In this document: piece by piece, positions 5,281 to 47,650 of the stretch | Numbering within the stretch: the first letter of the stretch is position 1 | Layout: the number at the start of each line of letters is the position of its first letter | IMG/VR virus record: IMGVR_UViG_3300047476_000267 | Location: 1 to 55,459 of that record | DNA length: 55,459 nt | Strand: one strand, 5' to 3' | Origin: a virus | Lineage: Duplodnaviria > Caudoviricetes | Program-made: the position numbers and the translations under genes | The notes under the pieces: generated by a model | Told to the model about the DNA's origin: nothing | Seen by the model: only the letters and a program-made list of their open reading frames with translations | The model's database searches: none

Positions 5281-5856
5281 ATGAATAACGACTTTATTGG
5301 TATCTACCCGAACGCCTTTTCAAAGGAGTTTTGTCAAAATGTTATTCAATATTTTGAAGATATGGAGTCTGGTGGGTTTACCTTTAATAGGCAAGAATTT
5401 GAGTCTGCGAGCAAAATGAAGAAAGATGACGAAGCAATTTTTCTTTCTGAGTTTGAGCAAATTAAATTAACAAGCAAGCCAATGGCTAAAGAGTTTCATA
5501 AAGTATTTTGGGAAGATTGTTACAGGCAATACGCAGAAAACTATTCAATTTTAAATAGTTGTGCTCATCACAATATATATGAAATAAAGTTGCAAAAAAC
5601 CCAAATTGGTGGTGGCTTCCATGATTGGCATGCCGAAGCTATGGATCGTTCGACCTCAAGTCGTTTATTGGTTTGGACTGTATACCTTAACGATGTTCAA
5701 GAAGGTGGCGAAACTGAATTTCTGTACCAGCATAAACGGGTTAAACCAGAGGCTGGCACATGCTTGATTTGGCCCGCTGCGTTTACACATACACATCGTG
5801 GTAATCCACCAATATCAAACGAAAAGTATATTTTAACTGGTTGGGTAGATTTTTAA
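5281..5856 (+). CDS. 2OG-Fe(II) oxygenase (prolyl-4-hydroxylase-like)
   Basis: WHAE, YLNDVQEGGETEF, THTHRG, KYILTGW motifs. Confidence 0.85.
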   Translation: MNNDFIGIYPNAFSKEFCQNVIQYFEDMESGGFTFNRQEFESASKMKKDDEAIFLSEFEQIKLTSKPMAKEFHKVFWEDCYRQYAENYSILNSCAHHNIYEIKLQKTQIGGGFHDWHAEAMDRSTSSRLLVWTVYLNDVQEGGETEFLYQHKRVKPEAGTCLIWPAAFTHTHRGNPPISNEKYILTGWVDF

Positions 5857-5865
5857 GGAGCCAAT

Positions 5866-6075
5866 ATGATTAAAACTATTCAAGACTCAATGGATGGTGG
5901 CGAATTTAAACCACGCCATACTGTAGAAATCTATTGCCCTAACTGTGGGCGTGACGTAGACGAAGCCGAGCTTGCTGCCAAAAAATGCAACGACTGCGGA
6001 GATCCGCTTGAAGATCCAGAGCAACATGTAGCGATTGTGGTTGCCAATATGTCGTTTGGGGGGAGCACACTATGA
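5866..6075 (+). CDS. Small zinc-ribbon protein
   Basis: CPNC and CNDC pairs; AAGGAG RBS. Confidence 0.6.
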   Translation: MIKTIQDSMDGGEFKPRHTVEIYCPNCGRDVDEAELAAKKCNDCGDPLEDPEQHVAIVVANMSFGGSTL

Positions 6076-12662: not shown

Positions 12663-13115
12663 ATGTTGCATAGCGCCCAAACAGATGAAACTAAAGCCCT
12701 TGCATCCACACTTTTGCTTGAACATGCGGGAGTCCAGCCATGCGCTGATTTCCAAGCACTGTTCTGGGTTGGGGAGGATAATCACATTGAATGGGTCATT
12801 GGCTACACAGCCTTTATAGGAAAGACTTGCCAAATGCACATGGTTAATTTAAAAGGAGGCTATACACCCAAGGGATTGCTCTTTGGTGCATTTGATTATC
12901 CTTTTAACTTCCTTGGTCTTGAGAAGGCGTTTGGAATTGTGAACAGCCTCAATACCAAGGCGATGGAGTATGACAAAAAACTGGGATTTAAAGAAGCCAT
13001 CCGTTTCCCAGGGATGCACTGTGATGGCGGTGATTTAGTAGTATTTGAAATGAATAAAGCTGACTGTCGCTGGATTAGGGAGCGGGTAAAACATGAAACA
13101 GAATTGGTCTCGTAG
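12663..13115 (+). CDS. GNAT acetyltransferase-like protein
   Basis: AFDYPF...NTKAMEYDKKLGFKE motif; lies between ejection genes. Confidence 0.7.
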   Translation: MLHSAQTDETKALASTLLLEHAGVQPCADFQALFWVGEDNHIEWVIGYTAFIGKTCQMHMVNLKGGYTPKGLLFGAFDYPFNFLGLEKAFGIVNSLNTKAMEYDKKLGFKEAIRFPGMHCDGGDLVVFEMNKADCRWIRERVKHETELVS

Positions 13116-18300: not shown

Positions 18301-21300
18301 GGCGTATGTTGCATCACAGTTGGCAGATATCAATAAGGACACCACGGTATACGAGCCAACCGCTGGTAACGGCATGCTGTTGATTAATGCAAACCCTAAG
18401 AATGTCATAGCTAATGAACTTAATGGCACTCGCCTTGAGATGCTCAAGCGTGTATTGCCTGGTGCAGAAGTAGTTAACAAAAACGCTCTTAGTTTCGATC
18501 CAACCCTTTCTGATCGTGTTATTGCCAACCCGCCATTTGGTGCTATTGGCGAAGAAGTTACTGTAGCTGGGAATAAGACAAGAGAGATTGACCATGCGAT
18601 TGCTTATAAGGCATTAGGTCGCATGCCAGTTAATGGCAGAGCAGTGCTAATTGTTGGCGGTGTTCTTGGAGATTCAAACGAGAAGAGAGTAGATGGCTAC
18701 CGTTCTGCGCAAAAACGTAACTTCTATTTCAACCTCTACAAAAAATACAACGTAGTTGACCATTTCTCCGTAGCTGGAGATATGTATAAGAAACAGGGAG
18801 CTGCCTACCCTGTCGATGTAATTGTGATTGCTGGCAAAGGTGGCGAATCAATCGACCTACCAGCTGCCAATTTGCCAAAAGTCTATAGCTCGTATGAGCA
18901 ATTAAAGGAGAAGCTAGATGAAGCTAGTCGCATGGTATCCAGAGGGGCTGAGCGCCCCGCCAGAGCTGACATCGGTGAAGCTGCCGTTGGGGAAGGTGAA
19001 CCACAAGCAGTGGGTCGAGGCGCTGTCCGACCGAGTGAGCCAGCTGGCGCAGAGCGAGCCAGACCCGAAAGAGGCGAGCCTACAGGCGTGTCGGCTGCTA
19101 GACCTACCCCTAGAGGACAACCCAGTGGAGCTAGGGCAGAACCTCGTGCAGAACAACCTAAACCTACTGACGTATCTGAACGTGGCAGAGTTGAAGGAAA
19201 ACCCGTTCCAAGAGGTGAAGGAGAGCAACCCGCTGGCAGAAGAGGCGCTGAAGAACGTAGACCTAGCGAGCTGGGTGGAATTAGCGTTGTCTCAGGTGAG
19301 CGAGTCAAGTCTGGACTCGTAGAGCGTAGAGGCGAGGAAGTCGAGACCGAGCAACAGGCAACCTACGAACCTAAATCTCAGGCCACATCCGTTGGTACAT
19401 TAGTGCCACGGGCTATGCGTGACTCCATCGAGCAGTCTCTCCAGAAGGTTGAGAACGAGATGGGTAACCTTGATGAATACGTGGCTGATAACCTAGGCAT
19501 GGATTTGGAGACCTTGCGTGAGGACTTCTCCGCAGAACAAGTTGATGCTTTAGCACTAGCCATCCGTAACGCTGAGGCTGGTAAGGGTTTCATTATTGGC
19601 GACCAGACTGGTATTGGTAAAGGTCGTGTTGTGGCTGCCATGATTAAGTTTGCTATCAAGAACGGCAAGATCCCAATCTTTGTTACTGAGAAGCCAAACC
19701 TTTACTCTGACATGATTCGAGATCTAGACGATATTGGCATGACCAAAGAGTTAGCGCTTGACACAAACAGACCAAAGGTATTTATCACCAATGGTGGTGA
19801 GTCTATCCCCTATCAGCTACTCCGCAAAAAGGGTGACGAGGTAGAGGAAATTAACCTTACCCTGAAAGCTCCCAAGTCAGGCAAAGCGCTTGACGGCATG
19901 ATGGAAGAGATGCGCAACAAGGACAGCATCGGTGATTACAAGGTCATCTTTACTACCTACAGCCAGCTCCAGAACGTCAAGGGCAAGGACACAGAACGCC
20001 AAAAGTTCATTAGTAACTTTGGCATGGATAACTACATGATTTTTGATGAGTCGCACAACGCTGGTGGCGGTGGCGAAACTCAAGCAAGAACCAAGGATCA
20101 AAGAGAAGCAGCCAAGAAAGGCGAGAGTCTTAGCACTGGTCGTGCTGGTTTCGTACGTAATCTAGTACGTAATGCCTTTGGAACATTCTTCTCATCGGCT
20201 ACCTACGCCAAACGCCCAGATGTGATGGACTTGTATTCCAGCACAAACATGATGCTGGCAGTAGATAAGCCAGCGGAGTTAGCAGAAGCGATTAAGCGTG
20301 GCGGTGTGCCGATGCAGCAGATTGTGGCAACCATGCTGACCAAAGATGGTCAATATATTCGCAGAGAGAGAACTTTTGCTGGCGTAGCTTACAACACTGT
20401 AGACACAGCGGTAGACAAACAAACTGCTGAAAACATGGCAACAGCTATGCGTGAGATCCTTTCGTTCTCTCGCTCCAAGGACATTGTCCTTAAGCAGATG
20501 CAGAAACAGTTTGATAAAGAAGCCAAAATGGTTTCTGAGGTCGGTGGTGAAAAAACAACAGTTCAGGGTGCTAACTTTGGATCTGTGATGCACAACCTGA
20601 TTGACCAGATGCTCTTGTCATTGAAGGCAAAGGACTCTGTTAATCATGCTATCAATCGCCTCAAAGCTGGCGAGAAGGTAGTAATGACTGTATCCAATAC
20701 CATGGGCTCGTTCTTACAGAGCTACGCTGAGGACATGGGCATCGAGGTAGGCGGTAAGGTAGATCTCTCGTTTGCTGACCTGTATGTCCGCTATCTGGAT
20801 AAGCAGCTGATGATTACCATCAAATCACCTGATGGCACAAAGAAACAGCGCAAGCTAACACCAGATGAGCTTGGTCCTACATTGATGGCACGCTACAACC
20901 AGATTCGCCAGCAGATCGAGAACTCAGGCTTTGGATCAGCGCCCATCTCGCCTATCGACTATATGCACAATGAGTTGCGTAAGGCTGGATACAAGACCGA
21001 TGAGATTACTGGCAGAACCATTACTCTGAACTACGCTACTGGGGAGCCAATCTTAACTAGCCGTTCAGCCAATATCCGTCAGCGGGTTAATGCAGTGCGT
21101 GGCTTTAACAGCGGTGACACAGACGTCATCATCCTGAACCAAGCTGGATCTACTGGACTATCGTTGCATGCAAGCAACAAGGTCAAAGACCAGCGCAAGC
21201 GTCATATGTTGATCGTTCAGCCAGAGAAGAATATCGACACCCATATGCAGATGCTTGGGCGTGTTCACAGAACAGGTCAGGTAGTCACCCCATCCTACTC

Positions 21301-24300
21301 TCAGATGATGGCTGACATCCCAGCGGAGATGCGCCCAGCTGCGGTATTGCTCAAGAAGATGGCATCTCTGAACGCCAACACTACGGCATCCCGTAAGTCT
21401 GCGGTGACAGCTGAGGGCGTGGTCGACTTTATGAATGACTACGGCGGTCAAGTAGCCCAAGAGTATCTACGGGATAACCCAGAGATTCACGAGGCGCTTG
21501 GCGGTGACAAGATGCTGGCGATTGCTGAGGACACCAACGAAGCCCTAGAAGCCGACATTCGCAGATTCACTGGCTACATTCCTATACTTCCGCTTGCCCA
21601 ACAGGAAGAAGTCTATGCTGACCTGATTGATCGCTACAACGAGTTGCTTGAGCGTGAGAACAGCATGGGCACGAATAAGCTCGAAGCCAAGGCAGTAGAC
21701 CTTGATGCTGAAACTCTGTCGATTGAGCCAATCAGCGAAGACAAAGGCGAGGACTCAATCTTCTCTGCACCAGCGTTTATGGAGCGTGTAGACGTCAAAC
21801 GCACTGTTAAGCCATATAGCAGCCAAGAAGTTAATCAGATGATTACTGAGAATCTTGGCGGTAAGACAAATGGCGTTCTTGCTAGAGAGATGATCTCTGA
21901 GTTTGATGAGCGTGAGACCAAGTTCGCTAGAGAAAGACTGGCAGCGCTCAGAGAGAAAGAGACCGATCAAGTCAAGATCGAGACCCAGCAGTCGCAACAG
22001 CGCTTACTGGCTGACAAGATCCGTTCTGTCTTGCAGAATCTCAAGATTGGCATGCCTGTCACCATCAAAGACAAGAACGGCATGTATGTATTCGGTGTCA
22101 TTACCGATATTAAAAACACCAAGCGCACAGTCAATCCAGCCTCTGGCTCCGACTGGAAGATGACTCTGGCTATTGCCAACGGTGATTCCAGAAGCCTGAC
22201 CCTGAACTTCTCGCAGATCGGCACGAACTACACCCTTGAGGAGTCGACTGAGGTTAACTACCTGAACCCAGAGACCCAGCAAGGCGAGTGGACTAAGATC
22301 ATCGACATCTTTGACAAGGGCGCAACAGTACGGCGTGAGAAGCGCTGGATGATTACTGGCAACATCTTGGCTGGCTTTGCCCAGTATCCAGGACAGATCC
22401 TCAGCTACACCAAGAACGATGGCACTACTGGTCAGGGCATCCTATTGCCCCGCCAGTTCAATTTTGAGGAAGAGAAGAAACGGGCTGATGTCCGTCTCAA
22501 GACCCCAGATGACATGCTCAAGTTCCTTGATGAGCTCAACGGCACGATAGCCAGCGATGACAATATCCTACGCATTACCAAGCGTGGCGATACCTACATG
22601 GTCTCTGTGCCGTCTAACAAGCGTTCTGGTGGCGAATACTTCCTAGATGAGAATCTTAAGTCAATCCTAGGCAAGGACTTCTACAAGCGTGGCTCGGATA
22701 TGATTAACTACACCCGCAGCCCACAAGAGTTCAAAGAAGCCATGGACTACTTGATGAAGGAGAAGGAGCAGTTCTTCAAGGCAATTACCCGCCAAGACGA
22801 AGCTCGTAAGATGTTTGGACCCAAAGAGGTTCAAGACATCGCTGGCGTTACCCAAAAGCGTGTGGATACCCGTAAGGATGAGATCCGTGCCGAGCAGATC
22901 AAAGAACAGGCTCGCCTAAGCCGTGCGATTACCGCCAAGCTCAAGAAGGTTATTGAGGGTAATGTAGACCTCAATATCCAGCGTGATCTGACTTATCTCA
23001 AGAAAGCCAAAGAAGATATGAAGGCAGAGCTGGCTAAGACCAAGCCAGCCCGTGTATCGCCACAGTGGATTCGCACCAGAGCATCGGCAGAGAACGCTGC
23101 TGGCAATCTATCTGATGAGGCATACCAAGTTGTAGAGATGCTGGCTAATCGTTTCCCAGGAGTTCTGGATGGACTGAGACTATCTGTCCGCACAACCAAG
23201 GGCGAGGCCACTGGTAACTTTAATCCCATGAATCGGTTGATTACTGTATTCAAGGAAGGCGCTACCCAAGACCGCACCATGCGCCATGAGATTGCTCATT
23301 CGTTAGAGCAGATGATGACCCCAGAGGCTCAGATGGCTGTGGTCGAGGCATGGGGTAATGCTCTATCTAAAGCGATTGAGGACAACACCGACAAGGTATC
23401 TCAGGACTATTTCAATGCCGTGCTGGATTACATCAACAATCCAACCGCTGAGACCCAGAAGAAGGCTACTGATCTGATGCCAGATTACAGCTTCTACCAG
23501 TATCTCAACCCATCGGAATATTGGGCAGTCAACGCTGAGCCATTAATGAAGGCATCGCTAGGCAGCGCATGGCAGCGCTTTACCAAGGCAGTCAGCAAGA
23601 TCCTAGAGGCTATCAAGTCTGTGATTGGCTTAAACAACAAGTATGCTGTGCATCGTGAGTTTGACCGCATCATGTCTGGCAAGCAAGACCGCATGACCCG
23701 TAAGATGTTGGTCGAGTACGTAACCGACAACGCCGATGCCTTGAAGTTCCTCAATAACGTAGAGGACTTTGATAAGCGCTTTGAGGAAGATGGACTAAAC
23801 CACACCCCAGTCAAGCCAAGCCGTAACGTTAAAGACATGCTGCTCGGTGGATTCCGTGGTGCAAAACAGATCTACAACGACACTCTAAACTCGCCTCTCA
23901 TGGCAGCTCAGGCGATGGGTGGCAAGATTGCCCGTGCCGTAACTTATGCCCGTAATAAGAACATCTGGTTTGGTGCTGGTTTGGAGATGGCTGATCTGGC
24001 GATGCAGAAAGCCAAAGGATTAGATGGTTTACTGCGTGATGGAGAGATGCGTGCTGTTGCCTCGATTGCAGTCACCAACGCCTTGCATGCTGGTCACGTA
24101 GCCTCTGAGGTCATTATCCGTGGCGCACTGGCGTTTAACGAGAAGACCCAGATGTTCCAAGCCATTAGACGCCCATTCTCGATGGCTAACGTATTGCTGG
24201 CTAAGCATGACTTGATTGAGCGTGTAGGCTTGCAACGGGCTACTGACATGGTCAACACCTTCTTTGAAGCCAAGCGTTCTAAGAGCATCATGGATGAGTT

Positions 24301-26566
24301 CAAGGCTCGTGAACAGGAGCTGAATGATCTAAACGCTGAGATGCGTGATCCAAGGACTATGCCACAGCGTCAAGCCGCCTTGCTCGATGAGATCCTACAA
24401 GCCGAGAAGGGCTTGCGGATGATTAACATCGCCAAGAAGAAGGTGCGCTTTACCGAAGACCAGATCGACTTCTACGGCAACCTTGAGAAAGACAACAAAG
24501 AGTTGCGCACCATGCTCGATAACTGGACTAAGGTCAACGACAACATGATCGACATGATGTTGTTTAGCAAGATCATTAGCAAGAAGCGTGCAGAGCAGCT
24601 CAAGAAAATCAAGGACTATGTGCCCTGGTATCGCATCAAGGATGACATGGAAGACGTGCATACCGACTCCAAGCTGGGTGGTGTTAAGCGCCTAACCAAT
24701 GTCGGCAAAGAGAAACGCTTTGAGGATACGGTAGTCGTTCAGGACATTGACGATATCGTGGATAACATGCTCCACAACGTAGGCATGATTACTCGTAACT
24801 CCATGCGTAACTACGCCGCCAACCGTGTAGCTCAGGAGTATGCAACCCGCAACAGCCGTGGTCAGATCCGTGTATTCCCAGAAGAGGGTCGCACGCCAGA
24901 TGGCGCAGTACGTACCAACATCCTCGTCAATGGTCGCAGAATCATTGTTGAGATCAAAGATCCGCTAATCGCTGAGGCAGTGTTGGGCATGGAGAACATC
25001 AACATGCCAGCTTTAGAGATGCTCAGCATGCTGGCTAACGGCTTGCGTAGGGGTGTTACCACATGGCCTACCTTCCAGATTCGCCAGTTGTTTATGGATG
25101 CGCCAACCGCAGCCTTGGTCACTGGGTTGAAAGACCCAACCAAAGTCTGGGCTGGCACGTTCCGTGGCTTTATCAAGGCTCTCCAATCGGATGATCCTGT
25201 GGTCGATATGCTCAAGTCCTACGGTATTGGTGGCTATCAGTCTTACACCAGAACCCCAGAGATCGAATACAAGAAGCAGATCGGCTTATTGGAAAAGAAC
25301 AAGTTTGATTCTCTGATGGCTTTCTTGGATAAGGTTGGTGACTCCTCAGACTACGCTCAGCGTATCTCGATCTACAACCGCACCCTGAAAGAGACTGGCG
25401 ATGAGATGCTGGCGATTATGAACGCCAACAATGTGATCGACTTCCTTAAGCGTGGTAGCGCAAGGCACGCCCAGTTCTTGACCAAGACTGTATCGTTTAT
25501 GAACGCCTACGCCCAGCAGCTTGATGTCCTGGTGATGGCTCTTATGGGTAAGCGTATGCTCGGCAAGTCTCGTCAGGCAGCCTTAGCGCAGTTGGCTAAG
25601 ACCGCAGCGACCTTTGGAACTTATGTATTGCTGTATAGCTGGATGGTTGGTGACGATGACGAATACCAGCAGTTGGATGACCAGACCAAAGTCCGCAACA
25701 TCTTTTTATCGAAGAACTGGACTGGCTTGGATCAGAACATCCTACTGCCAATGCACACCTCTGCCAGCTTTATGTTCAAGTCCATCCCTGAGTTGACCTA
25801 TAACTACATCGTCAATAAAGGTACGGACAATGAGATGGATGCCAAGCGCCTACGCACCGCCCTGTCTGAGGCTGCGATGGATTCCTTGCTTGGTCCAAAC
25901 CCAGTGCCTACTGGTGTCAAGCCAGCCATTGAGATCATCCTCAACAAGAACTTCTTTACGGGCAGCACAGTCGTACCCCGTGGCATGGAAGACTTGGATG
26001 CAGCCGAGCAATACACTGCTACGACATCCGAGTTCGGTAAGGTTCTCAGTGCCTTGACTGGATTGCCGTTCACAGACAAGCGGGTATTAAACCCAATCGA
26101 GGCAGATCACTTGGTTCGGGGTATGTTTGGAACCACAGGATCCGCAGTCCAGTGGCTATCTAACCTATTCTCAGAAGACCGCCCAGCACCACGGGCTAAG
26201 GACAATCCACTGTATGGCTCATTCATTACGGCTGATGTACCCCGTGGTCGTGAGGATCTGTTCTATGACTTCAAGGGCATCGTAGATAACCGCTACGAAA
26301 CCTTTATGAAGCTCTTGGAGCGTGGCAAGGATAAACAGGCTGATGAGTACTACGACAAGTACAGCGACCTGATTGCCTCCCGTGATTACGTAGTGGGCAT
26401 GGAAGCTGCGCTACGGGATATCAACCGCCAGATTAGAAACATTGGTGAGATCAAGGACAAGGACTTCACGCCTGAGCAGCGCAGACAGGAGATCACGGAC
26501 TTACAGCGCCAGAAGAACGATATCTTGGATGGCATTATCCAGATGCGTTTAGACGCTGGACTGTAA
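15320..26566 (+). CDS. Giant polyvalent ejection protein (DarB-like): N6-adenine methyltransferase + Strawberry-notch SF2 helicase + zincin + LPD38-like C-terminus
   Basis: YSTPAPLA/EPTAGNG/IANPPF (about 18280-18540); DQTGIGKGR, FDESH, SSATYA, GSTGLSLHA, QMLGRVHRTGQ (about 19600-21280); HEIAH...EYW (about 23285-23525). Confidence 0.85.
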   Translation: MATKPENVNPFAKYVEQSGEEAPPENPFAKYLQPEEPSQLLDPAKMIAAGAIGPTAAIPLGLESSVRNIPRQVVEQQAVTPVEKVGPLTFAEELVRKGPAQLLVNTARAFIKNATGESFEKQQERQKQDEIAVDRAISNLPRVPGLSQLAEAGEKVSGKLRESVSTAGKQAIADSQIEGNLLEAIQNQNIDNLSFGKNPSFMGYALQGSQVLGSLAPIIGTAIMTKGSSKAVGTVGFGMGAGEAVQDAQQYISKLSDEELMANSPYFKKMVEDGVNPAEARKVVTDKAAEYAAQLQGSVSAFGSVITGKLITGQFDKLMTGPVKNRLGRIALGTTAGAAEEGTQEFLEGIAKDLGINKSVIKEIGEESFANFVLGAIGGAGPGAYRGAVAKTKEEAEAAAKKPTREQVDAQMRLALGEEGVPPAVPPAAVTPPITPAPTPAEPAAEPALEEEIVQPTPRAVAPTPMLLQTAGLPPQVADQVQNLESQFQLIEQRKLDPNLTNEEAEIFQERQNLIQQQIAQLIQAPAPEIQAPAIAEAPPIDEELLADIQERGEPIESRMDAEQRLSNGEQIYAFPEQDEGRPTPITSVDQLAAYTPDQMMALPSVAPVAEEVVREPEVAAPPVEEAAPTEAPALTQAEINQQRQAERRAAAEAGTKPLPEEPEAMLKRQKGYEEARAKYAADMDPMFVYKALELADRDLEMREEALPELRKMEEMGLIKIKKGKRKSFYLGQGAKEAGLTNELSFSGYQDVVNYLSAKPKTIVELPKKEEAPAIKVTPNKIFTEDAATKARNRLRSKLNQLNSGIDPEFLIDGVTLSGYHIEKGARTFAAYAKAMIADLGDKVRPYLKSWYMAVKFDPRSAEFSKEMDDEATVDKYKDEETTSIADPDVKFKVAEDISKYFLADGSFKDIVEARKFISNITKQKIEPGTAEAKEADEAIEVGVVLAARKIAARNKPADQIYDDLVDLYNRQPNLSVRSSTSIKEQAYSTPAPLAYVASQLADINKDTTVYEPTAGNGMLLINANPKNVIANELNGTRLEMLKRVLPGAEVVNKNALSFDPTLSDRVIANPPFGAIGEEVTVAGNKTREIDHAIAYKALGRMPVNGRAVLIVGGVLGDSNEKRVDGYRSAQKRNFYFNLYKKYNVVDHFSVAGDMYKKQGAAYPVDVIVIAGKGGESIDLPAANLPKVYSSYEQLKEKLDEASRMVSRGAERPARADIGEAAVGEGEPQAVGRGAVRPSEPAGAERARPERGEPTGVSAARPTPRGQPSGARAEPRAEQPKPTDVSERGRVEGKPVPRGEGEQPAGRRGAEERRPSELGGISVVSGERVKSGLVERRGEEVETEQQATYEPKSQATSVGTLVPRAMRDSIEQSLQKVENEMGNLDEYVADNLGMDLETLREDFSAEQVDALALAIRNAEAGKGFIIGDQTGIGKGRVVAAMIKFAIKNGKIPIFVTEKPNLYSDMIRDLDDIGMTKELALDTNRPKVFITNGGESIPYQLLRKKGDEVEEINLTLKAPKSGKALDGMMEEMRNKDSIGDYKVIFTTYSQLQNVKGKDTERQKFISNFGMDNYMIFDESHNAGGGGETQARTKDQREAAKKGESLSTGRAGFVRNLVRNAFGTFFSSATYAKRPDVMDLYSSTNMMLAVDKPAELAEAIKRGGVPMQQIVATMLTKDGQYIRRERTFAGVAYNTVDTAVDKQTAENMATAMREILSFSRSKDIVLKQMQKQFDKEAKMVSEVGGEKTTVQGANFGSVMHNLIDQMLLSLKAKDSVNHAINRLKAGEKVVMTVSNTMGSFLQSYAEDMGIEVGGKVDLSFADLYVRYLDKQLMITIKSPDGTKKQRKLTPDELGPTLMARYNQIRQQIENSGFGSAPISPIDYMHNELRKAGYKTDEITGRTITLNYATGEPILTSRSANIRQRVNAVRGFNSGDTDVIILNQAGSTGLSLHASNKVKDQRKRHMLIVQPEKNIDTHMQMLGRVHRTGQVVTPSYSQMMADIPAEMRPAAVLLKKMASLNANTTASRKSAVTAEGVVDFMNDYGGQVAQEYLRDNPEIHEALGGDKMLAIAEDTNEALEADIRRFTGYIPILPLAQQEEVYADLIDRYNELLERENSMGTNKLEAKAVDLDAETLSIEPISEDKGEDSIFSAPAFMERVDVKRTVKPYSSQEVNQMITENLGGKTNGVLAREMISEFDERETKFARERLAALREKETDQVKIETQQSQQRLLADKIRSVLQNLKIGMPVTIKDKNGMYVFGVITDIKNTKRTVNPASGSDWKMTLAIANGDSRSLTLNFSQIGTNYTLEESTEVNYLNPETQQGEWTKIIDIFDKGATVRREKRWMITGNILAGFAQYPGQILSYTKNDGTTGQGILLPRQFNFEEEKKRADVRLKTPDDMLKFLDELNGTIASDDNILRITKRGDTYMVSVPSNKRSGGEYFLDENLKSILGKDFYKRGSDMINYTRSPQEFKEAMDYLMKEKEQFFKAITRQDEARKMFGPKEVQDIAGVTQKRVDTRKDEIRAEQIKEQARLSRAITAKLKKVIEGNVDLNIQRDLTYLKKAKEDMKAELAKTKPARVSPQWIRTRASAENAAGNLSDEAYQVVEMLANRFPGVLDGLRLSVRTTKGEATGNFNPMNRLITVFKEGATQDRTMRHEIAHSLEQMMTPEAQMAVVEAWGNALSKAIEDNTDKVSQDYFNAVLDYINNPTAETQKKATDLMPDYSFYQYLNPSEYWAVNAEPLMKASLGSAWQRFTKAVSKILEAIKSVIGLNNKYAVHREFDRIMSGKQDRMTRKMLVEYVTDNADALKFLNNVEDFDKRFEEDGLNHTPVKPSRNVKDMLLGGFRGAKQIYNDTLNSPLMAAQAMGGKIARAVTYARNKNIWFGAGLEMADLAMQKAKGLDGLLRDGEMRAVASIAVTNALHAGHVASEVIIRGALAFNEKTQMFQAIRRPFSMANVLLAKHDLIERVGLQRATDMVNTFFEAKRSKSIMDEFKAREQELNDLNAEMRDPRTMPQRQAALLDEILQAEKGLRMINIAKKKVRFTEDQIDFYGNLEKDNKELRTMLDNWTKVNDNMIDMMLFSKIISKKRAEQLKKIKDYVPWYRIKDDMEDVHTDSKLGGVKRLTNVGKEKRFEDTVVVQDIDDIVDNMLHNVGMITRNSMRNYAANRVAQEYATRNSRGQIRVFPEEGRTPDGAVRTNILVNGRRIIVEIKDPLIAEAVLGMENINMPALEMLSMLANGLRRGVTTWPTFQIRQLFMDAPTAALVTGLKDPTKVWAGTFRGFIKALQSDDPVVDMLKSYGIGGYQSYTRTPEIEYKKQIGLLEKNKFDSLMAFLDKVGDSSDYAQRISIYNRTLKETGDEMLAIMNANNVIDFLKRGSARHAQFLTKTVSFMNAYAQQLDVLVMALMGKRMLGKSRQAALAQLAKTAATFGTYVLLYSWMVGDDDEYQQLDDQTKVRNIFLSKNWTGLDQNILLPMHTSASFMFKSIPELTYNYIVNKGTDNEMDAKRLRTALSEAAMDSLLGPNPVPTGVKPAIEIILNKNFFTGSTVVPRGMEDLDAAEQYTATTSEFGKVLSALTGLPFTDKRVLNPIEADHLVRGMFGTTGSAVQWLSNLFSEDRPAPRAKDNPLYGSFITADVPRGREDLFYDFKGIVDNRYETFMKLLERGKDKQADEYYDKYSDLIASRDYVVGMEAALRDINRQIRNIGEIKDKDFTPEQRRQEITDLQRQKNDILDGIIQMRLDAGL

Positions 26567-34501: not shown

Positions 34502-35239
34502 ATGCTACCCAACTGCGAACTTGTTAATTGTTTTGGCAACCAGTACCTTGTGTTCAAGGGTAAGGATCTAATCTCTAATGCCATAAAGCAACAGGGCTAT
34601 GAGGTCGAGGTCTTTGCCCTGTCCCACAAGATACTGGAGAAGCATCAAAACGGAGTGGTGCTGGATATTGGTGCAAATATGGGAACCTTTACCATCCCAT
34701 TAGCTAAGGCAAACCCCCATCTTACTTTCCATTCCTTTGAGCCACAGCGCATTATTTACTACCAGTTATGCGCCAACACCTTCATCAACGGGCTGGATAA
34801 CGTATATACGCATCACTTTGGTCTGTCAGACAAACAGGATCGCATGAGACTAATCTTGCCCGACTACGAAACAGAAACCAACATTGGCGCATTTAGCGTG
34901 GACAAAGAGGTGCGTGAAGAGCCTGACTACGAGTGCCCAACTAAGGGCAGAGACGAGACTATTACCTTATTCCCACTGGATGACGGCAATCATCAAAATG
35001 TTCGGCTAATCAAGATTGATGTGGAAGGCCATGAGTTAGAGGTTATCAAGGGTGGAATTAAGACCATCAAGAACAACAACTACCCGCCGATCATCTTTGA
35101 GGCGTGGAACTGGAAGCCTTGGTTTGAGCCTAAGCGTAAAGCCCTATTTGAATATTTACAGGGACATGGATACGATATAACCGAAGGCGGTAACAATAAT
35201 TTAGCGCAACACCCTGACCATGGAGATATGATGAAATGA
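34502..35239 (+). CDS. FkbM-family methyltransferase
   Basis: LDIGANMG, SFEPQ, IKIDVEGHE, PPIIFE. Confidence 0.9.
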   Translation: MLPNCELVNCFGNQYLVFKGKDLISNAIKQQGYEVEVFALSHKILEKHQNGVVLDIGANMGTFTIPLAKANPHLTFHSFEPQRIIYYQLCANTFINGLDNVYTHHFGLSDKQDRMRLILPDYETETNIGAFSVDKEVREEPDYECPTKGRDETITLFPLDDGNHQNVRLIKIDVEGHELEVIKGGIKTIKNNNYPPIIFEAWNWKPWFEPKRKALFEYLQGHGYDITEGGNNNLAQHPDHGDMMK

Positions 35240-36808: not shown

Positions 36809-37000
36809 AGCTACACCGCATAGGTCGGATTCTTTAACGACAGCTATTCGGGAAGATGCTCCTACTGTGGGATAAGACTTGAAACAGGAGCAGAGATGGC
36901 GAAGCCAGAGTCTCTAGTCGAACGTCTGGCGGGTGCAGTGGCTCCAGAAAGCAACTGTTGAAGGCATCTAGGATAGGCTAGGTGCGTTCACCAAAAAGCA
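36809..37000 (+). ncRNA. Candidate multi-stem structured RNA
   Basis: Nested stems TGCTCCT/AGGAGCA, GAGA-TGGC/GCCA-TCTC, CAGT/ACTG, GCATCTAG/CTAGGTGC; no long ORF. Confidence 0.5.
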
Positions 37001-42882: not shown

Positions 42883-42914
42883 AGAAAAACCCCCAGTCAA
42901 ACTGCACTGGGGGT
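42883..42914 (-). terminator. Intrinsic terminator of the leftward gene block
   Basis: ACCCCCAGT/ACTGGGGGT stem with TTTTCT tail on the minus strand, between convergent genes. Confidence 0.8.
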
Positions 42915-44707: not shown

Positions 44708-45187
44708 TCACCAACTGGCTTGATAGTAAAACTCATACTGATCTTCGGGCAGTGATTCCAGAGCATTGGTAATGCCCTCAACAGTCCTTTTCAGATCATC
44801 CCAATACCATTCATCTTTTTCGTATGTTCCGAAAAATGGGCCTTGCATTGGCTCTAAATCCTCATCCCTTTCGGCATCAGGATTCTCAAGAATGTCTTTG
44901 CACAAGTCCCGCAACTCCACCAGTTTCTCTCTCGGCACATAGGATTGCTGACACTCATCCACCCCGCCCTGACAGTTTTCCACGAACCACCCATGAATAG
45001 CGTTTGCTTTTCGCCAATACATAGCATCCACCGATACTTCCTTGACCACAAGGCTCGATCCCGCAAAGCGTTTTTCAGGATTACCATCAACCCCAATCAT
45101 TTCATTGACCTTTTGAGATATTTCCTTGTCCTCGTCTCGGTGAGACGAAAGATATCTCTTGGCAGTTAAATACATATCTAATCCCAT
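44708..45187 (-). CDS. Hypothetical protein (MGLDMYL family)
   Basis: YWRKANAIHGWF, FFG..E.DEWY, YYQASW. Confidence 0.7.
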   Translation of the reverse strand: MGLDMYLTAKRYLSSHRDEDKEISQKVNEMIGVDGNPEKRFAGSSLVVKEVSVDAMYWRKANAIHGWFVENCQGGVDECQQSYVPREKLVELRDLCKDILENPDAERDEDLEPMQGPFFGTYEKDEWYWDDLKRTVEGITNALESLPEDQYEFYYQASW

Positions 45188-45213
45188 AACATTCTCCTAG
45201 CAGTTAAAAAGTT

Positions 45214-45270
45214 ATTGATTGCCGAATGACAATCCTTATGCCCTCACACAAGGGCATAAAGGTATCACTC
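45214..45270 (-). ncRNA. Intergenic two-hairpin RNA motif, copy A
   Basis: GAGUGAUACCU-hairpin-GGAUUGUC/GGCAAUC; homologous to 47104-47163. Confidence 0.55.
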
Positions 45271-45520
45271 AGGGCATCACTGGCAAACAGGATTGATTAT
45301 CATCACTGGTAAACAATGCACCCCCACCATTCCCCTCATCATCACGACTGGGGAAGAACCAAAGACCATCTTCGGTTTGAAAAGCGATTGACCTTTCATA
45401 CCAACCCATCTGATCCCTTTCTTCCTTTGTCATGTATCGCACATCAACGATCCGTTTATTGAGCAACAGTTTCTTGGCAACCACATTCCAATACTTGTCG
45501 TAATCTTTAATTTCTTCCAT
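45269..45520 (-). CDS. Hypothetical protein
   Basis: PSRDDEGNGGGALF motif; GGGGAG RBS. Confidence 0.65.
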   Translation of the reverse strand: MEEIKDYDKYWNVVAKKLLLNKRIVDVRYMTKEERDQMGWYERSIAFQTEDGLWFFPSRDDEGNGGGALFTSDDNQSCLPVMP

Positions 45521-45529
45521 CACACTCCC

Positions 45530-45607
45530 CTAGTTAAATACAACGATTGCAGACCACACCACATATGCAACATACGCTAAACAAATAGCCAGTATCCAGT
45601 CCCACAT
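45530..45607 (-). CDS. Single-TM peptide (25 aa)
   Basis: MWDWILAICLAYVAYVVWSAIVVFN; TAATG coupling. Confidence 0.4.
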   Translation of the reverse strand: MWDWILAICLAYVAYVVWSAIVVFN

Positions 45608-46095
45608 TAGAAAATCCTTCCGTTTTCATCAAACTCATAATTGTTGATTTCCATCATTTCCTCGACTGCTTCATCTGAGTAGTGATATTCAATGTCCCGA
45701 TTGATAGCGATCAGTGCAGACTCCAATGCCTGATGAAAGGCATACATGGCATCACCAGTTTTCTTAAATTCCTCAAAGAATGACTGGATCATGGTGCAGT
45801 CCAACCACATACCTGATTTGGGCAAATACCCAGTTTTGGCTAGTTTCTTGGCATCTTCCAAGGTGAACCCTCTGAAATGATGGTTTTCAACATCAGTCTT
45901 TAGAAATTCACCCCGCCCACCAATCGACCAGTCTTTCAAAGTAATCCCAAAATGCTCACAGAAGGCTTTGATTGAATCAATGTTCTCCTGATGCCAAGGG
46001 TAGTCCATGCCATTGATATACCAGTCTTTAGCCCTTTGCTTTGCTTTACCATCTAACTCAGAGTATTTGTAGATTGATAATTCAGCAACTCTCAT
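45607..46095 (-). CDS. Hypothetical protein
   Basis: YKYSEL..KAKQRAKDW...SDEAVEEM..N.YEFDENG pattern of mobile-element proteins. Confidence 0.65.
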   Translation of the reverse strand: MRVAELSIYKYSELDGKAKQRAKDWYINGMDYPWHQENIDSIKAFCEHFGITLKDWSIGGRGEFLKTDVENHHFRGFTLEDAKKLAKTGYLPKSGMWLDCTMIQSFFEEFKKTGDAMYAFHQALESALIAINRDIEYHYSDEAVEEMMEINNYEFDENGRIF

Positions 46096-46115
46096 TTCTA
46101 TCTCCTAGCAGTTTT

Positions 46116-46209
46116 GACAAAGACCCAGTGCAATTTGCGGACTCATGCAATAAAGCAATTTGCGGACTCATGCACTGGGTTTCGACTATTCAAGTCTCAT
46201 CAGTTTGCC
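46116..46209 (-). ncRNA. Type I hammerhead ribozyme
   Basis: GGCAAA-CUGAUGA-GACU(UGAAU)AGUC-GAAA-CCCAGUGCA...UGCACUGGG-UC^UUUGUC; all core nucleotides and three stems present. Confidence 0.9.
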
Positions 46210-46394
46210 TAGTAATCCTCATTCTCTTCCCACAAGCGGGGATCAATCAGTCTTTGCCCGAAAGCATTGAACAACTGTCCACAATCACAGGCAATGTCTT
46301 CACCTGAACCATCCGAGCAGACCTCACGATTGCAGTCGCATTTCCACACACGCAGTAGAACCCGACCAGTGTCTTCATCAAATTCAACTCGCAT
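46209..46394 (-). CDS. Small Cys-rich hypothetical protein
   Basis: CDC...CDCGQLFNAFGQRL. Confidence 0.6.
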   Translation of the reverse strand: MRVEFDEDTGRVLLRVWKCDCNREVCSDGSGEDIACDCGQLFNAFGQRLIDPRLWEENEDY

Positions 46395-46705
46395 TATTCG
46401 AACTCCTCAGGAACGATCACATCAAACTTACGCAACAACTCAATGGCTTTATCAGACAGGCTCATTACTCCGTCATAATCGGTCAGTGTGCGAACTCCAA
46501 CAGGATCAATAGAGAACCACAAACCAATGTATTCAAACTTATCCAGTGTAGGAATATCCCACTCGATAAACCCAGTAGCGTCATCATGGAAATACAACTC
46601 CATTGTGGATTCGTGTGTGCCTAAGTCTCTCTCGCCCCATGATCCCTCAAGGATCAAAGGGCAATTAAACTCGGCACGACCAACAAAAAAGGTTTGGTGT
46701 GCCAT
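46394..46705 (-). CDS. Hypothetical protein
   Basis: GGAG RBS; TAATG coupling. Confidence 0.6.
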   Translation of the reverse strand: MAHQTFFVGRAEFNCPLILEGSWGERDLGTHESTMELYFHDDATGFIEWDIPTLDKFEYIGLWFSIDPVGVRTLTDYDGVMSLSDKAIELLRKFDVIVPEEFE

Positions 46706-46709
46706 GATT

Positions 46710-47084
46710 TCAATACTCCGAAGTGAGCATCAAAACATTGTCGGTCAGGAAGAACTTGTATTCACCAACTGGGCAGTCGGTGTATTCAATGATCTTCTTT
46801 GCCAACAGTTCACAATCACCATCTTCAACTACGATCATTGCATTGTTGTCATCCTGATTACTTCCAACGATCAGCGTAATGCTGATGAATGGCTCTTTCT
46901 TGAGCAGTGGAAAATACTCAGTCGCAACGATATCCAAGAACCAGTAAGCACCATTACCCGCATTCTCAGCAAAGTATTGAACCCCATCAGTATGGTGCAG
47001 ACCTTTTGCAAACATGGGATTGGTTTGATAGTAATTCGCAGTCCCAATAAATTGGGATAAATCTAAAGTGGTAGTCGAATCCAA
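46710..47084 (-). CDS. DUF6876-like protein
   Basis: LSQFIGTANYY, TDGVQY.AE...AYWFLD, YTDCP, LMLTSEY; TTG start after CTAGGAG. Confidence 0.65.
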   Translation of the reverse strand: MDSTTTLDLSQFIGTANYYQTNPMFAKGLHHTDGVQYFAENAGNGAYWFLDIVATEYFPLLKKEPFISITLIVGSNQDDNNAMIVVEDGDCELLAKKIIEYTDCPVGEYKFFLTDNVLMLTSEY

Positions 47085-47103
47085 TTTAATCTCCTAGCAG
47101 TTA

Positions 47104-47163
47104 TGATTATCGGGATTGATAATCCGTAAACCCACGCAGTGCATGGGCTTACAGGTATCACTC
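47104..47163 (-). ncRNA. Intergenic two-hairpin RNA motif, copy B
   Basis: GAGUGAUACCU-hairpin-GGAUUAUC/GAUAAUC; compensatory changes relative to copy A. Confidence 0.55.
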
Positions 47164-47547
47164 CTCTACTTCTTCCTCAAGAACAGTATCAACAATGTAA
47201 TCACCAAACTTTAGAACTCCATCATCATTGGTGCATAAGGTGGCAGTCTCAAACACAACGAGGGTAGAATCATTCCAGTCGGTGGTAGCGTAAGCAACAG
47301 GCACAAGACCAATCAAACCCGCATCAACTGGATATGTATTACCCTTGTTATCGGGATAGCAACCATCACCCCATTTAGTGCCAAAGGCAAGAACTTCAAA
47401 GTCTCCAACCTTGCCAACAGGCTCATTGAAATAATTGCATGACTGGAGTAAAGCACCCCAGTCAGCGTCAGGCACTACATAACAAGGATCGCCAAGGATG
47501 TAAGCACCTTTTGGCACAACAACAGATTTAGAACTCAATGTAAGCAT
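47158..47547 (-). CDS. Hypothetical protein
   Basis: YILGDPCYV, TKWGDG.Y, PVDAGLIGLVP motifs; first gene of the leftward block. Confidence 0.7.
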   Translation of the reverse strand: MLTLSSKSVVVPKGAYILGDPCYVVPDADWGALLQSCNYFNEPVGKVGDFEVLAFGTKWGDGCYPDNKGNTYPVDAGLIGLVPVAYATTDWNDSTLVVFETATLCTNDDGVLKFGDYIVDTVLEEEVEE

Positions 47548-47599
47548 TTCTATCTCCTAGCAGTTTGGTAGTCGAATTAGGTGTTTAGCACCTACCGAC

Positions 47600-47650
47600 A
47601 TTATAGCGAAGAAAGAAATAAGAACACAATACTTTTTTGAAAATAATTTT
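47600..47650 (-). promoter_or_regulatory. Early-type sigma70 promoter with UP-like element
   Basis: TTGTGT-18 bp-TATAAT preceded by A/T tracts. Confidence 0.65.

What the first reader, a model, noticed from the sequence alone, without database searches (positions are those of the whole stretch)
45204..47163. Two copies of an unrecognised covarying RNA motif in the same slot as the hammerhead
Seen (minus strand): copy A 45214-45270 and copy B 47104-47163 each fill the gap between a stop codon and an AACUGCUAGGAG RBS. Both read GAGUGAUACCU, then a hairpin of different sequence (UUAUGCCC/GGGCAUAA vs GUAAGCCCA/UGGGUUUAC), then G and a second hairpin with a compensatory change (GAUUGUC/GGCAAUC vs GAUUAUC/GAUAAUC). 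The 5' UGAUACC can alternatively pair with GG-AU-URUCA, giving two mutually exclusive folds. I could not match it to hammerhead, twister, pistol or HDV cores. Several ribozyme classes were discovered as motifs occupying hammerhead/twister gene contexts, so this is a candidate new self-cleaving or processing RNA. An RNase III site, as in the T7 early region, is the main alternative.
Basis: partly seen in the sequence, partly recalled or inferred. Interest (0 to 1): 0.82.

Follow-up and report, generated by a model that had tools for sequence, protein, structure and literature searches.

The report
Phage RNase III cutting site variant
The two RNA motifs are real and common in uncultured water phages, but they look like relatives of the well-known RNase III cutting sites of phages T7 and T3, with an extra hairpin, and not a new ribozyme.

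Summary
Both copies (minus strand, 45216-45269 and 47104-47162) are as described. The motif is common: 66 instances in 47 viral records and 111 more matches in metagenome contigs. None turned up in 185,579 prokaryote genomes. Hairpin 1 covaries at all 12 pairs. Both the 5' pairing (P1) and hairpin 2 (H2), which exclude each other, are supported.

It is not a new class. A covariance model built only from the metagenomic instances ranks as its top three hits in phage T3 the annotated RNase III sites R0.5, R4.7 and R1.1. In T7 its top four plus-strand hits fall in the R0.5, R18.5, R1.1 and R6.5 slots. The upstream stop codon sits at the same place in the lower stem.

Best reading (0.72): host RNase III cuts the early polycistronic mRNA just 5' of GAUU. 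Hairpin 1 stays on the upstream 3' end. H2, present in every instance, then caps the new 5' end.

Rfam has no family for these sites. The self-cleaving reading is not supported. Cleavage itself was not tested.

The parts
47153..47162 (-). Copy B, 5' segment (A8-U17). It is the 5' strand of P1 plus CC and the bulged U. The UGA stop of the 129-aa gene lies inside it, at 47158-47160.
47126..47152 (-). Copy B, hairpin 1 (H1): 12 base pairs and a 3-nt loop. It corresponds to the upper stem of T7/T3 RNase III sites.
47117..47125 (-). Copy B, G50 plus the middle segment GAUUAUCA. It pairs either with the 5' segment (P1) or with the 3' segment (H2). The predicted RNase III cut lies between 47125 and 47124, give or take 1-2 nt.
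   Evidence: model alignment to T7 R0.5. The T7 cut coordinates are recalled, not checked in a call.
47104..47116 (-). Copy B, the H2 loop (47112-47116), the H2 3' strand GAUAAUC (47105-47111) and the conserved A (47104).
47082..47102 (-). Ribosome-binding site AACUGCUAGGAG (47091-47102) and the UUG start (47082-47084) of the DUF6876 gene.
45260..45271 (-). Copy A, the UGA stop of the 84-aa gene (45269-45271) and the 5' segment A8-U17 (45260-45269).
45236..45259 (-). Copy A, hairpin 1: 10 base pairs and a 4-nt loop.
45216..45235 (-). Copy A, G50 (45235), H2 (45217-45234, GAUUGUC/GGCAAUC) and the conserved A (45216). The predicted cut lies between 45235 and 45234.
45185..45205 (-). Ribosome-binding site AACUGCUAGGAG (45194-45205) and the AUG start (45185-45187) of the 159-aa gene.
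46116..46209 (-). Hammerhead ribozyme in the equivalent slot, between the UAG stop (46209-46211) and the RBS (46102-46113). Its ends lie in stem I. The expected cut is after C46122.
   Evidence: Core read. Stem III differs in sequence but stays paired in relatives. RF03152 matches relative L020 at 29 bits.
47571..47640 (-). Likely host-type promoter (perfect TATAAT at 47600-47605, weak -35) and a hairpin near the 5' end of the leader, ahead of the first AACUGCUAGGAG (47554-47565).
   Evidence: the hairpin is kept with a different sequence in L024 and L086. The promoter scan did not call it, so it was read by eye.
42889..42914 (-). Terminator-like hairpin (9 base pairs plus a U run) at the end of the minus-strand operon.

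Best explanation
Each copy is an RNase III processing signal of the kind known from the T7 and T3 mRNAs. It sits between two cistrons of an early operon that the host polymerase probably transcribes.

Proposed mechanism:
1. The 5' segment (AGUGAUA, which holds or abuts the upstream stop codon) pairs with UAUCAYU. With two C-G pairs and hairpin 1 this makes an irregular helix of about 17-21 bp with small bulges (shown by covariation).
2. Host RNase III cuts the 3' strand just 5' of GAUU, between G50 and G51 (inferred by homology).
3. Hairpin 1 stays on the upstream mRNA as a 3' guard against exonucleases (inferred, as described for T7).
4. The released GAUURUC refolds with the downstream GAYARUC into hairpin 2. 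The first nucleotide of H2 is the new 5' end, so the downstream mRNA starts with a flush 5' hairpin about 21-31 nt before its start codon (the pairing is shown; the role is inferred).

Before cleavage the two folds are about equally stable. H2 stacked under hairpin 1 may also present RNase III with a helix when a terminating ribosome covers the 5' segment (speculative).
For: Match to annotated T3 sites.
- Model R2 was built from 53 metagenomic instances only and run over all of T3, both strands, with filters off.
- Its three best hits are 1355-1408 (33.6 bits, E = 4e-5), 12967-13017 (29.7 bits) and 6000-6052 (16.6 bits).
- The record annotates these as RNase III recognition sites R0.5, R4.7 and R1.1. 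R18.5 ranks 7th and R6.5 ranks 9th of the 15 hits.

Match to T7.
- Of 6 hits, the four best plus-strand ones are 1425-1478, 36814-36866, 5845-5897 and 18522-18573.
- They fall in the gene 0.4/0.5, 18/18.5, 1/1.1 and 6.3/6.5 gaps (gene positions).
- Passages of PMC3643576, PMC6121014 and 10.1101/106799 name R0.5, R1.1, R6.5 and R18.5 as T7 RNase III sites.

Same position of the stop codon.
- The upstream stop is the UGA inside AGUGAUA in T7 genes 0.4 and 18 and in T3 genes 4.5 and 18. In T3 gene 0.3 it abuts the G.
- In the motif, 62 of 63 instances have an upstream frame of 30 or more codons whose stop starts -8 to +1 from that G (20 at +1, 20 at -3). The 63rd frame, with its stop at +1, is cut short by the end of its locus.

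Structure.
- Hairpin 1: 12 of 12 pairs change on both sides.
- H2: 100% paired, 5 of 7 pairs change on both sides.
- P1: G-C 54, A-U 6, U-A 1 at one pair; U-A 43, U-G 13, C-G 4, A-U 1 and one mismatch at another.
- When C57 becomes U, both of its partners change (L026, L217, L223, L079, L054 and L076).

Strand.
- 135 of 1163 cells are G-U pairs (tallied by hand).
- R2 scores 66.4 and 60.1 bits on the minus strand against 15.6 and 12.8 on the plus strand.

Context.
- Flanking genes are diverse: 30 and 31 protein clusters.
- The same RBS is also preceded by a leader hairpin and by a hammerhead.

Literature, passages read.
- Loops or bulges limit the cut to one strand and leave a protective 3' hairpin. 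Substrates are about two helical turns. Coaxially stacked short helices can serve (PMC1540722).
Against: - No cleavage was observed. The one RNA run (X15) gave only four short contigs at depth 3-6, and none covers a motif.
- The host is unknown, so its RNase III specificity is unknown.
- T7 and T3 sites score only 11-34 bits, against 27-67 bits for the motif's own instances.
- Only 4 T7 slots and 5 of the 10 annotated T3 sites are hit. Identity to T7 sites is 46-57% over about 55 nt.
- T7 sites have a 4/5-nt internal loop (PMC6121014, passage). Here two C-G pairs and small bulges take its place.
- P1 has mismatches at one pair in 11 of 63 instances. With a 9-10 bp hairpin 1 the helix is shorter than two turns.
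- H2 is as stable as P1: mean difference +0.6 kcal/mol, sd 1.8, n = 63, with P1 favoured in 21. The RNase III-type fold is therefore not dominant.
- RNase III alone does not explain why the lower-stem sequence is kept from coliphages to aquatic phages of 24-51% G+C.
- The cut position rests on T7 coordinates that I recalled, not on a call.
Confidence: 0.72

Rival explanations
1. A translation-actuated switch with no cleavage. A ribosome stopping on the 5' segment melts P1. The middle segment then flips into H2, and this changes how easily the next cistron is initiated (coupling or insulation).
For: - The stop codon lies in or against the P1 strand in 62 of 63 instances with an upstream frame of 30 or more codons.
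- The two folds are nearly equal in energy: +0.6 kcal/mol, sd 1.8.
- Both helices covary.
- The start codon lies a tight 21-31 nt after H2 in most instances.
Against: - Neither fold hides the ribosome-binding site (and the sequences).
- I found no consistent pairing between the freed segment and the initiation region across lineages (read by eye).
- It does not explain the match to T7/T3 RNase III sites.
- The same stop-codon placement occurs in T7/T3 sites, which are known to be cut.
Confidence: 0.1
2. A target of another endonuclease, either host RNase E or a phage-encoded enzyme. It would recognise the invariant GGAUU next to a hairpin.
For: - GGAUU is invariant or nearly so: G50 and G51 in 63 of 63, A52 and U53 in 61 of 63, U54 in 63 of 63.
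- It resembles the RNase E preference for an A/U-rich single strand beside a stem-loop. That consensus is recalled, not checked in a call.
- The sequence is conserved more strongly than RNase III is known to require.
Against: - GGAUU is paired in both folds, whereas RNase E needs single strand.
- The same GAUU lies at the recalled RNase III cut of T7 R0.5 and R1.1.
- No nuclease gene common to the motif-bearing loci was looked for or found.
Confidence: 0.08
3. A new self-cleaving ribozyme.
For: - It occupies the same slot as a hammerhead in this operon.
- It is about 58 nt long with many conserved positions, including a U-G pair kept in 50 of 63 hairpin 1 stems.
- No Rfam family matches it.
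Against: - Conserved positions are almost all explained by two plain alternative helices.
- The loops are variable, apart from the nucleotides that extend P1. No pseudoknot or conserved junction was found.
- Its closest relatives are protein-cut RNase III sites.
- The missing Rfam hit is explained, because Rfam also lacks the T7 sites.
Confidence: 0.04
4. A DNA-level element: a folded single-strand recombination site or homology patch that marks the borders of gene cassettes, as attC sites do in integrons.
For: - Relatives in runs X23 and X24 break similarity exactly at the motif and RBS edges: 45216, 47160/47163 and 47554/47564.
- Flanking genes are highly diverse.
- The layout, conserved ends around a variable stem that starts at the stop codon, recalls attC. 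That comparison is recalled, not tested.
Against: - It does not explain H2, the fixed distance to the start codon, or the match to RNA-level RNase III sites.
- No recombinase was linked to it.
- Mosaic joints at any conserved intergenic patch are expected as a by-product.
Confidence: 0.03

Closest known systems
RNase III processing sites of coliphages T7 and T3 (R0.5, R4.7, R18.5, R1.1, R6.5)
   Same: - Position between a stop codon and the next RBS in a polycistronic phage mRNA.
- Lower stem AGUGAUA/UAUCAYU holding the stop codon.
- GAUU at the junction.
- An upper stem that starts with AAG-type pairs.
- A model built from the motif alone finds these sites as its top hits.
- T7 R1.1 and T7/T3 R18.5 can also fold a hairpin that includes the first nucleotide after the recalled cut.
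   Different: - Two C-G pairs and small bulges replace the 4/5-nt internal loop.
- A conserved downstream strand that forms H2 is present in all 66 instances. It is absent from T7 R0.5 and T3 R0.5 and R4.7.
- The carriers lack a T7-like RNA polymerase: 0 of 5 records searched, with the T7 control positive.
- Identity to T7 sites is only 46-57%.
Hammerhead ribozyme in the same operon (RAGATH-1-like, RF03152)
   Same: - Same slot: it starts at the stop codon and ends a few nucleotides before an identical AACUGCUAGGAG.
- Presumably the same outcome, a cut between cistrons.
   Different: - Different core and fold.
- It cuts itself without protein, leaving a 5'-OH and no 5' hairpin.
- The motif has none of the hammerhead core.
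Terminator/antiterminator-type bistable leaders
   Same: One middle segment can pair with either of two partners, and both pairings are kept by compensating changes.
   Different: - No U-run terminator, no hidden RBS and no ligand-binding domain.
- It sits between cistrons and not in a leader.

Membership tests
T7/T3-type phage RNase III processing site | Sequence and structure resemble experimentally defined or annotated sites | tested here: met
   - R2, built from 53 metagenomic instances, ranks annotated T3 sites R0.5, R4.7 and R1.1 as hits 1-3, with R18.5 and R6.5 at ranks 7 and 9 of 15.
- In T7 its four best plus-strand hits lie in the R0.5, R18.5, R1.1 and R6.5 slots.
- Scores are modest, 11-34 bits, and 5 of the 10 annotated T3 sites are missed.
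T7/T3-type phage RNase III processing site | An irregular hairpin of roughly two helical turns whose loops or bulges restrict the cut | tested here: met
   - P1 (5-7 bp), 2 C-G pairs and hairpin 1 (9-14 bp), with a bulged U and a bulged AU.
- 95.3% of cells pair on an alignment not fitted to the structure.
- Some instances are shorter than 20 bp.
T7/T3-type phage RNase III processing site | Lies between cistrons of a polycistronic phage mRNA, with the upstream stop codon in or against the lower stem | tested here: met
   62 of 63 instances. The same holds in T7 genes 0.4 and 18 and in T3 genes 0.3, 4.5 and 18.
T7/T3-type phage RNase III processing site | Cut by RNase III in vivo or in vitro at a defined bond | not testable with these tools
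   The only RNA run gave four low-depth contigs that miss the motifs.
T7/T3-type phage RNase III processing site | The carrier belongs to the T7 group (single-subunit RNA polymerase) | tested here: not met
   PF00940 is absent from the window and from 4 motif-bearing records, two of them 99-100% complete. T7 as control gave E = 1e-109. This is a feature of the known carriers, not of the RNA element itself.
Known self-cleaving ribozyme classes in Rfam (hammerhead, twister, twister-sister, pistol, hatchet, HDV-like, hairpin, RAGATH families) | Match to the class's covariance model | tested here: not met
   No ribozyme family matched in 44900-47500, even at E <= 10. None matched in the whole window at gathering score.
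Self-cleaving ribozyme (any class) | Protein-free, site-specific cleavage | not testable with these tools
   Needs a bench assay.
Riboswitch-type switch | A conserved ligand-binding core of unpaired, conserved junction or loop nucleotides | tested here: not met
   Loops are variable. The conserved positions lie in the two alternative helices.

The most novel reading that the evidence does not exclude
The element is a ribosome-tolerant, self-capping RNase III site.
- It offers two interchangeable lower stems. P1 uses the strand that carries the stop codon. H2 uses a downstream strand and stacks under hairpin 1.
- RNase III can therefore cut the same bond whether or not a terminating ribosome covers the stop codon.
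- H2 then seals the new 5' end against 5'-end-dependent decay.
- Because one operon uses this element and a hammerhead before identical ribosome-binding sites, phage hammerheads would be protein-free stand-ins for RNase III sites. That would give a concrete answer to what these ribozymes are for.
Probability: 0.3. Interest if true: 0.6.

Novelty: new variant of a known kind. Interest (0 to 1): 0.42.

Why it matters
- It shows that the T7/T3 style of RNase III signal is not confined to the T7 group. The lower-stem sequence and the embedded stop codon recur in many uncultured freshwater and marine phages that lack a T7-type polymerase. No public RNA family covers any of them, so annotation pipelines miss them.
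- The built-in second hairpin suggests a design rule: cut, then cap both new ends. That rule could be tested, and could be reused as a genetic insulator.
- The side-by-side use with a hammerhead gives a natural experiment on why phages carry self-cleaving ribozymes.
- It removes a false lead for a new ribozyme class.

Tried and rejected
Ideas tested and dropped:
- N4-type hairpin promoter for a virion RNA polymerase. The 3748-aa ORF (15320-26566) is a helicase/LPD38 polyvalent protein, not a polymerase.
- Pairing of the 5' segment with the 16S rRNA 3' tail, a kink-turn, a permuted hammerhead core, an HDV-like topology and a triple helix. All were checked by eye only. None fits, or the G11-to-A changes compensated within the RNA argue against it.
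- Intrinsic terminator. The scan lists both hairpins of copy A as terminator-like, but there is no U run next to either, and the operon continues.
- A cis-regulator of one gene family. Flanking genes fall into 30 and 31 clusters.

Searches that gave nothing:
- Cultured relatives: none at the DNA level.
- Prokaryote genomes: the strict pattern gave 13 stretches. On inspection none had hairpin 1. The 5 that I folded gave -1.9 to -4.2 kcal/mol.
- Known ribozymes in 16 motif-bearing loci (143 kb): none at gathering score. The only hit was Betaproteobacteria-1 RNA in L012.
- Text search for the 8-mer: 751 papers, and the 15 listed were all unrelated.
- 'RAGATH' and a search for ribozymes in phage intergenic regions: no listed title or abstract start describes this motif. 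I therefore cannot say it is unpublished.

Sources I could not see:
- Weinberg et al. 2015 (PMC4509812) and the T7 refactoring paper are not held.
- Supplements are closed and I did not ask for them. The RAGATH candidate drawings there could bear on whether the motif was seen before.

RNA evidence:
- Run X15 covers coding parts only, at depth 3-6. X23 and X24 are probably DNA of relatives. No conclusion about processing can be drawn.

Rows dropped:
- From the first pattern scan: 90 of 125 matches with no inner hairpin or duplicate sequence, and 4 with a hairpin but no H2 (L045, L063, L080, L085).
- From A1: L033, which duplicates L026 within the motif.
- From A3: 8 outliers with long insertions or the second H2 type.
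Full report
**1.

Read on the minus strand, both copies lie between a stop codon and an exact AACUGCUAGGAG.
- That 12-mer has four exact minus-strand copies in the window, plus one 1-mismatch match on the plus strand; 0.28 matches were expected by chance.
- GAGUGAUACCU is found exactly twice.
- Copy A spans 45216-45269 and copy B spans 47104-47162.

Each copy has five parts in order:
- a conserved 5' segment (A8-U17 in my numbering);
- a hairpin whose sequence differs between copies (H1);
- a single G;
- GAUURUC, a short loop, then GAYARUC (H2);
- an A.

The G-C versus A-U change in H2 and the alternative pairing of the 5' segment with the middle segment (P1) are both there. Each copy folds much better than shuffles (z = -4.7 and -4.6, 0 of 200 shuffles as good).

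The third AACUGCUAGGAG is preceded by a hammerhead with a complete core (46116-46209). Its stem III differs in sequence in relatives but still pairs. Its counterpart in L020 matches RF03152 weakly, at 29 bits against a gathering score of 56.3.

The fourth AACUGCUAGGAG follows a probable promoter and a leader hairpin.

**2. The motif is widespread and covaries**

The window is a whole IMG/VR record of 55,459 bases.

*Finding more instances*
After removing duplicate sequences, 35 distinct matches had an inner hairpin. Of these, 31 also had H2, including the two window copies. The pattern did not ask for H2.
- A model built from those 31 (R1) found further, more diverged copies in the same contigs.
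- In all I aligned 66 instances, 63 of them distinct, from 47 records.
- A strict pattern gave 120 matches in 109 metagenome stretches. Of these, 111 have H1, with 57 different H1 sequences. They come from lake, marine (TARA) and other samples.
- The same strict pattern gave 13 stretches in one genome each of 185,579 prokaryote species. None showed H1.

*Base-pair counts on the 63 distinct instances*
- H1 changes on both sides at 12 of 12 pairs.
- H2 is paired in 100% of cells, with 5 of 7 pairs changed on both sides. That alignment was fitted to this structure.
- P1, which the model did not include, is also supported. One pair reads G-C 54, A-U 6, U-A 1. Another reads U-A 43, U-G 13, C-G 4, A-U 1, with one mismatch. 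A third pair is mismatched in 11 of 63.
- On a MAFFT alignment not fitted to any structure, P1 plus H1 pairs in 95.3% of cells, against 74.0% in shuffles.

*Two further points*
- When C57 of the middle segment becomes U, both partners change: G11 to A and G66 to A. So both helices are under selection although they exclude each other.
- Their predicted energies are nearly equal: mean difference +0.6 kcal/mol, sd 1.8, n = 63.

*The structure belongs to the sense strand*
- 135 of 1163 cells are G-U pairs (my tally).
- R2 scores 66.4 and 60.1 bits on the minus strand, against 15.6 and 12.8 on the plus strand.

**3. Context**
- In 62 of 63 instances an upstream frame of 30 or more codons ends with a stop that starts between -8 and +1 of G9. 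Twenty use the UGA or UAA inside the segment and twenty abut it. The 63rd frame, with its stop at +1, is cut short by the end of its locus.
- A start codon was found for 61 of 63. The median distance is 29 nt after H2 and the minimum is 21. The few large values come from my filter skipping short frames.
- Flanking proteins are diverse. The 56 downstream proteins fall into 30 clusters and the 62 upstream proteins into 31.
- In the window the neighbours are small phage proteins of unknown function, including DUF6876 and phrog_20074.
- The phage carries a terminase, a portal, a primase, a helicase and a 3748-aa polyvalent protein. It has no T7-like RNA polymerase. Four other motif-bearing records also lack one, while the T7 control scored E = 1e-109.

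**4. What it is**

Rfam 15 gave no family for the motif at gathering score or at E <= 10. The lead came from folding the intergenic regions of the T7 early operon. The gap between genes 0.4 and 0.5 has the same AGUGAUA, the same GAUUAUCA, and a stop codon at the same place.

I then built R2 from 53 metagenomic instances, with the P1-plus-H1 structure and no T7 sequence.

*T3.* The T3 record annotates ten 'RNase III recognition sites'. R2 gave 15 hits at E <= 10:
- hits 1-3 are R0.5 (33.6 bits, E = 4e-5), R4.7 (29.7 bits) and R1.1 (16.6 bits);
- R18.5 ranks 7th and R6.5 ranks 9th;
- the other ten hits score 9-14 bits and are not annotated sites; two of them lie antisense to, or at the edge of, annotated sites.

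*T7.* R2 gave six hits:
- the four best plus-strand hits lie in the gaps 0.4/0.5, 18/18.5, 1/1.1 and 6.3/6.5;

*Supporting points*
- The stop codons of T7 genes 0.4 and 18 and of T3 genes 4.5 and 18 are the UGA inside AGUGAUA. The stop of T3 gene 0.3 abuts the G.
- Rfam also finds nothing in the T7 early region at E <= 0.1. That explains why the motif had no Rfam hit.
- Identity between the window copies and T7 sites is 46-57%. It is 68% between the two window copies and 65-70% among the T7 sites.

**5. How it probably works**

*From passages I read*
[quoted passage not shown] R1.1 is cut at one bond (PMC4858673).
- Internal loops or bulges limit the cut to one strand, and this leaves a 3' hairpin that guards against exonucleases. 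Substrates are about two helical turns. Coaxially stacked short helices can serve as substrate (PMC1540722).

*Position of the cut.* I recall, but could not check in a call, that the T7 cuts at R0.5 and R1.1 fall just 5' of GAUU. The model alignment puts that bond between G50 and G51 of the motif. In the window that is 47125|47124 and 45235|45234.

*Why that position is striking.* G51 is the first nucleotide of H2. After the cut, the downstream mRNA could therefore begin with a flush hairpin. From my own knowledge, such a hairpin protects against 5'-end-dependent decay. H1 would stay on the upstream mRNA.

*How this fits the other data*
- It explains why two exclusive helices are both conserved: one acts before the cut and one after it.
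- The primary transcript also starts with a hairpin before the same RBS, and that hairpin has a different sequence in L024.
- H2 is present in all 66 instances. R2, which does not model H2, found no site lacking it in the 47 sources.
- Among coliphage sites, T7 R1.1 and T7/T3 R18.5 can form a comparable 5' hairpin. T7 R0.5, T3 R0.5 and T3 R4.7 cannot.
- A U-G pair kept in 50 of 63 H1 stems lies 11-12 nt from the predicted bond. That is where T7 R1.1 has its U-G and U-A pairs. The abstract of PMC1540722 reports a UA/UG 'distal box' as a positive determinant. I offer this as a lead, not a test.

*Shown versus inferred*
- Shown: the structures, their covariation, the placement, and the likeness to annotated sites.
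- Inferred: the enzyme, the bond that is cut, and the roles of H1 and H2.

**6. Weak points**
- No cleavage was observed.
- The host is unknown.
- Scores on T7 and T3 are modest, and half of the annotated T3 sites are missed.
- The internal loop differs from that of the T7 sites.
- H2 competes with P1 on equal terms.
- RNase III alone does not explain why the lower-stem sequence is kept across such distant phages.
- Mosaic joints at the motif edges in relatives suggest the conserved patches also serve recombination, probably as a by-product.

**7. Rivals and verdict**

| Reading | Confidence |
|---|---|
| T7/T3-type RNase III site with a built-in second hairpin | 0.72 |
| Ribosome-driven switch without a cut | 0.10 |
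| Target of another nuclease | 0.08 |
| New self-cleaving ribozyme | 0.04 |
| DNA-level cassette border | 0.03 |

This is a new variant of a known kind. It is of moderate interest for three reasons: its breadth, the second hairpin, and the direct comparison with a hammerhead in the same operon.

Noticed in passing
window 46116-46209 (-): The hammerhead has an unusually long stem III. Its loop region holds two direct copies of a 19-nt unit. Relatives have short, unrelated stem III sequences. Rfam does not call it in the window even at E <= 10.
   Followed up: partly
window 36814-36934 (+); L012 3945-4063 (-): Betaproteobacteria-1 RNA (RF02932) matches strongly in the window (86.8 bits) and in another motif-bearing phage contig (104.3 bits). 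This points to a phage-borne role for that orphan RNA and hints at a betaproteobacterial host.
   Followed up: no
window 15320-26566 (+): A 3748-aa ORF with SNF2/Strawberry-notch helicase domains and LPD38, that is, a large polyvalent protein. It follows a gene that matches a DNA ejection protein family.
   Followed up: partly
L100 9647-9717 (-); L161 10301-10370 (-): A second subtype of the motif. The middle segment reads GGGCU and H2 is a different helix (GGCUA/UAGCC and GGCUU/AAGCC). The 5' segment has changed so that it still pairs with the region after GGGC.
   Followed up: partly
window 45216, 47160-47163, 47554-47564, 46092-46179: Contigs of relatives in two wastewater runs lose similarity exactly at the edges of the motifs, the RBS and the hammerhead stem III. 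Different genes lie between these points. The conserved junctions are module borders.
   Followed up: no
L241 (T7) 5887-5925; L241 36857-36885; L243 (T3) 35079-35107: After the recalled RNase III cut, T7 R1.1 and T7/T3 R18.5 are predicted to fold a hairpin that includes the first or second nucleotide of the new 5' end. I do not know whether this has been described.
   Followed up: partly
window 47571-47599 (-); L024, L086: The leader of the operon's first gene folds into a hairpin near its 5' end. The hairpin is kept with a different sequence in relatives, always about 10-16 nt before the same RBS.
   Followed up: partly
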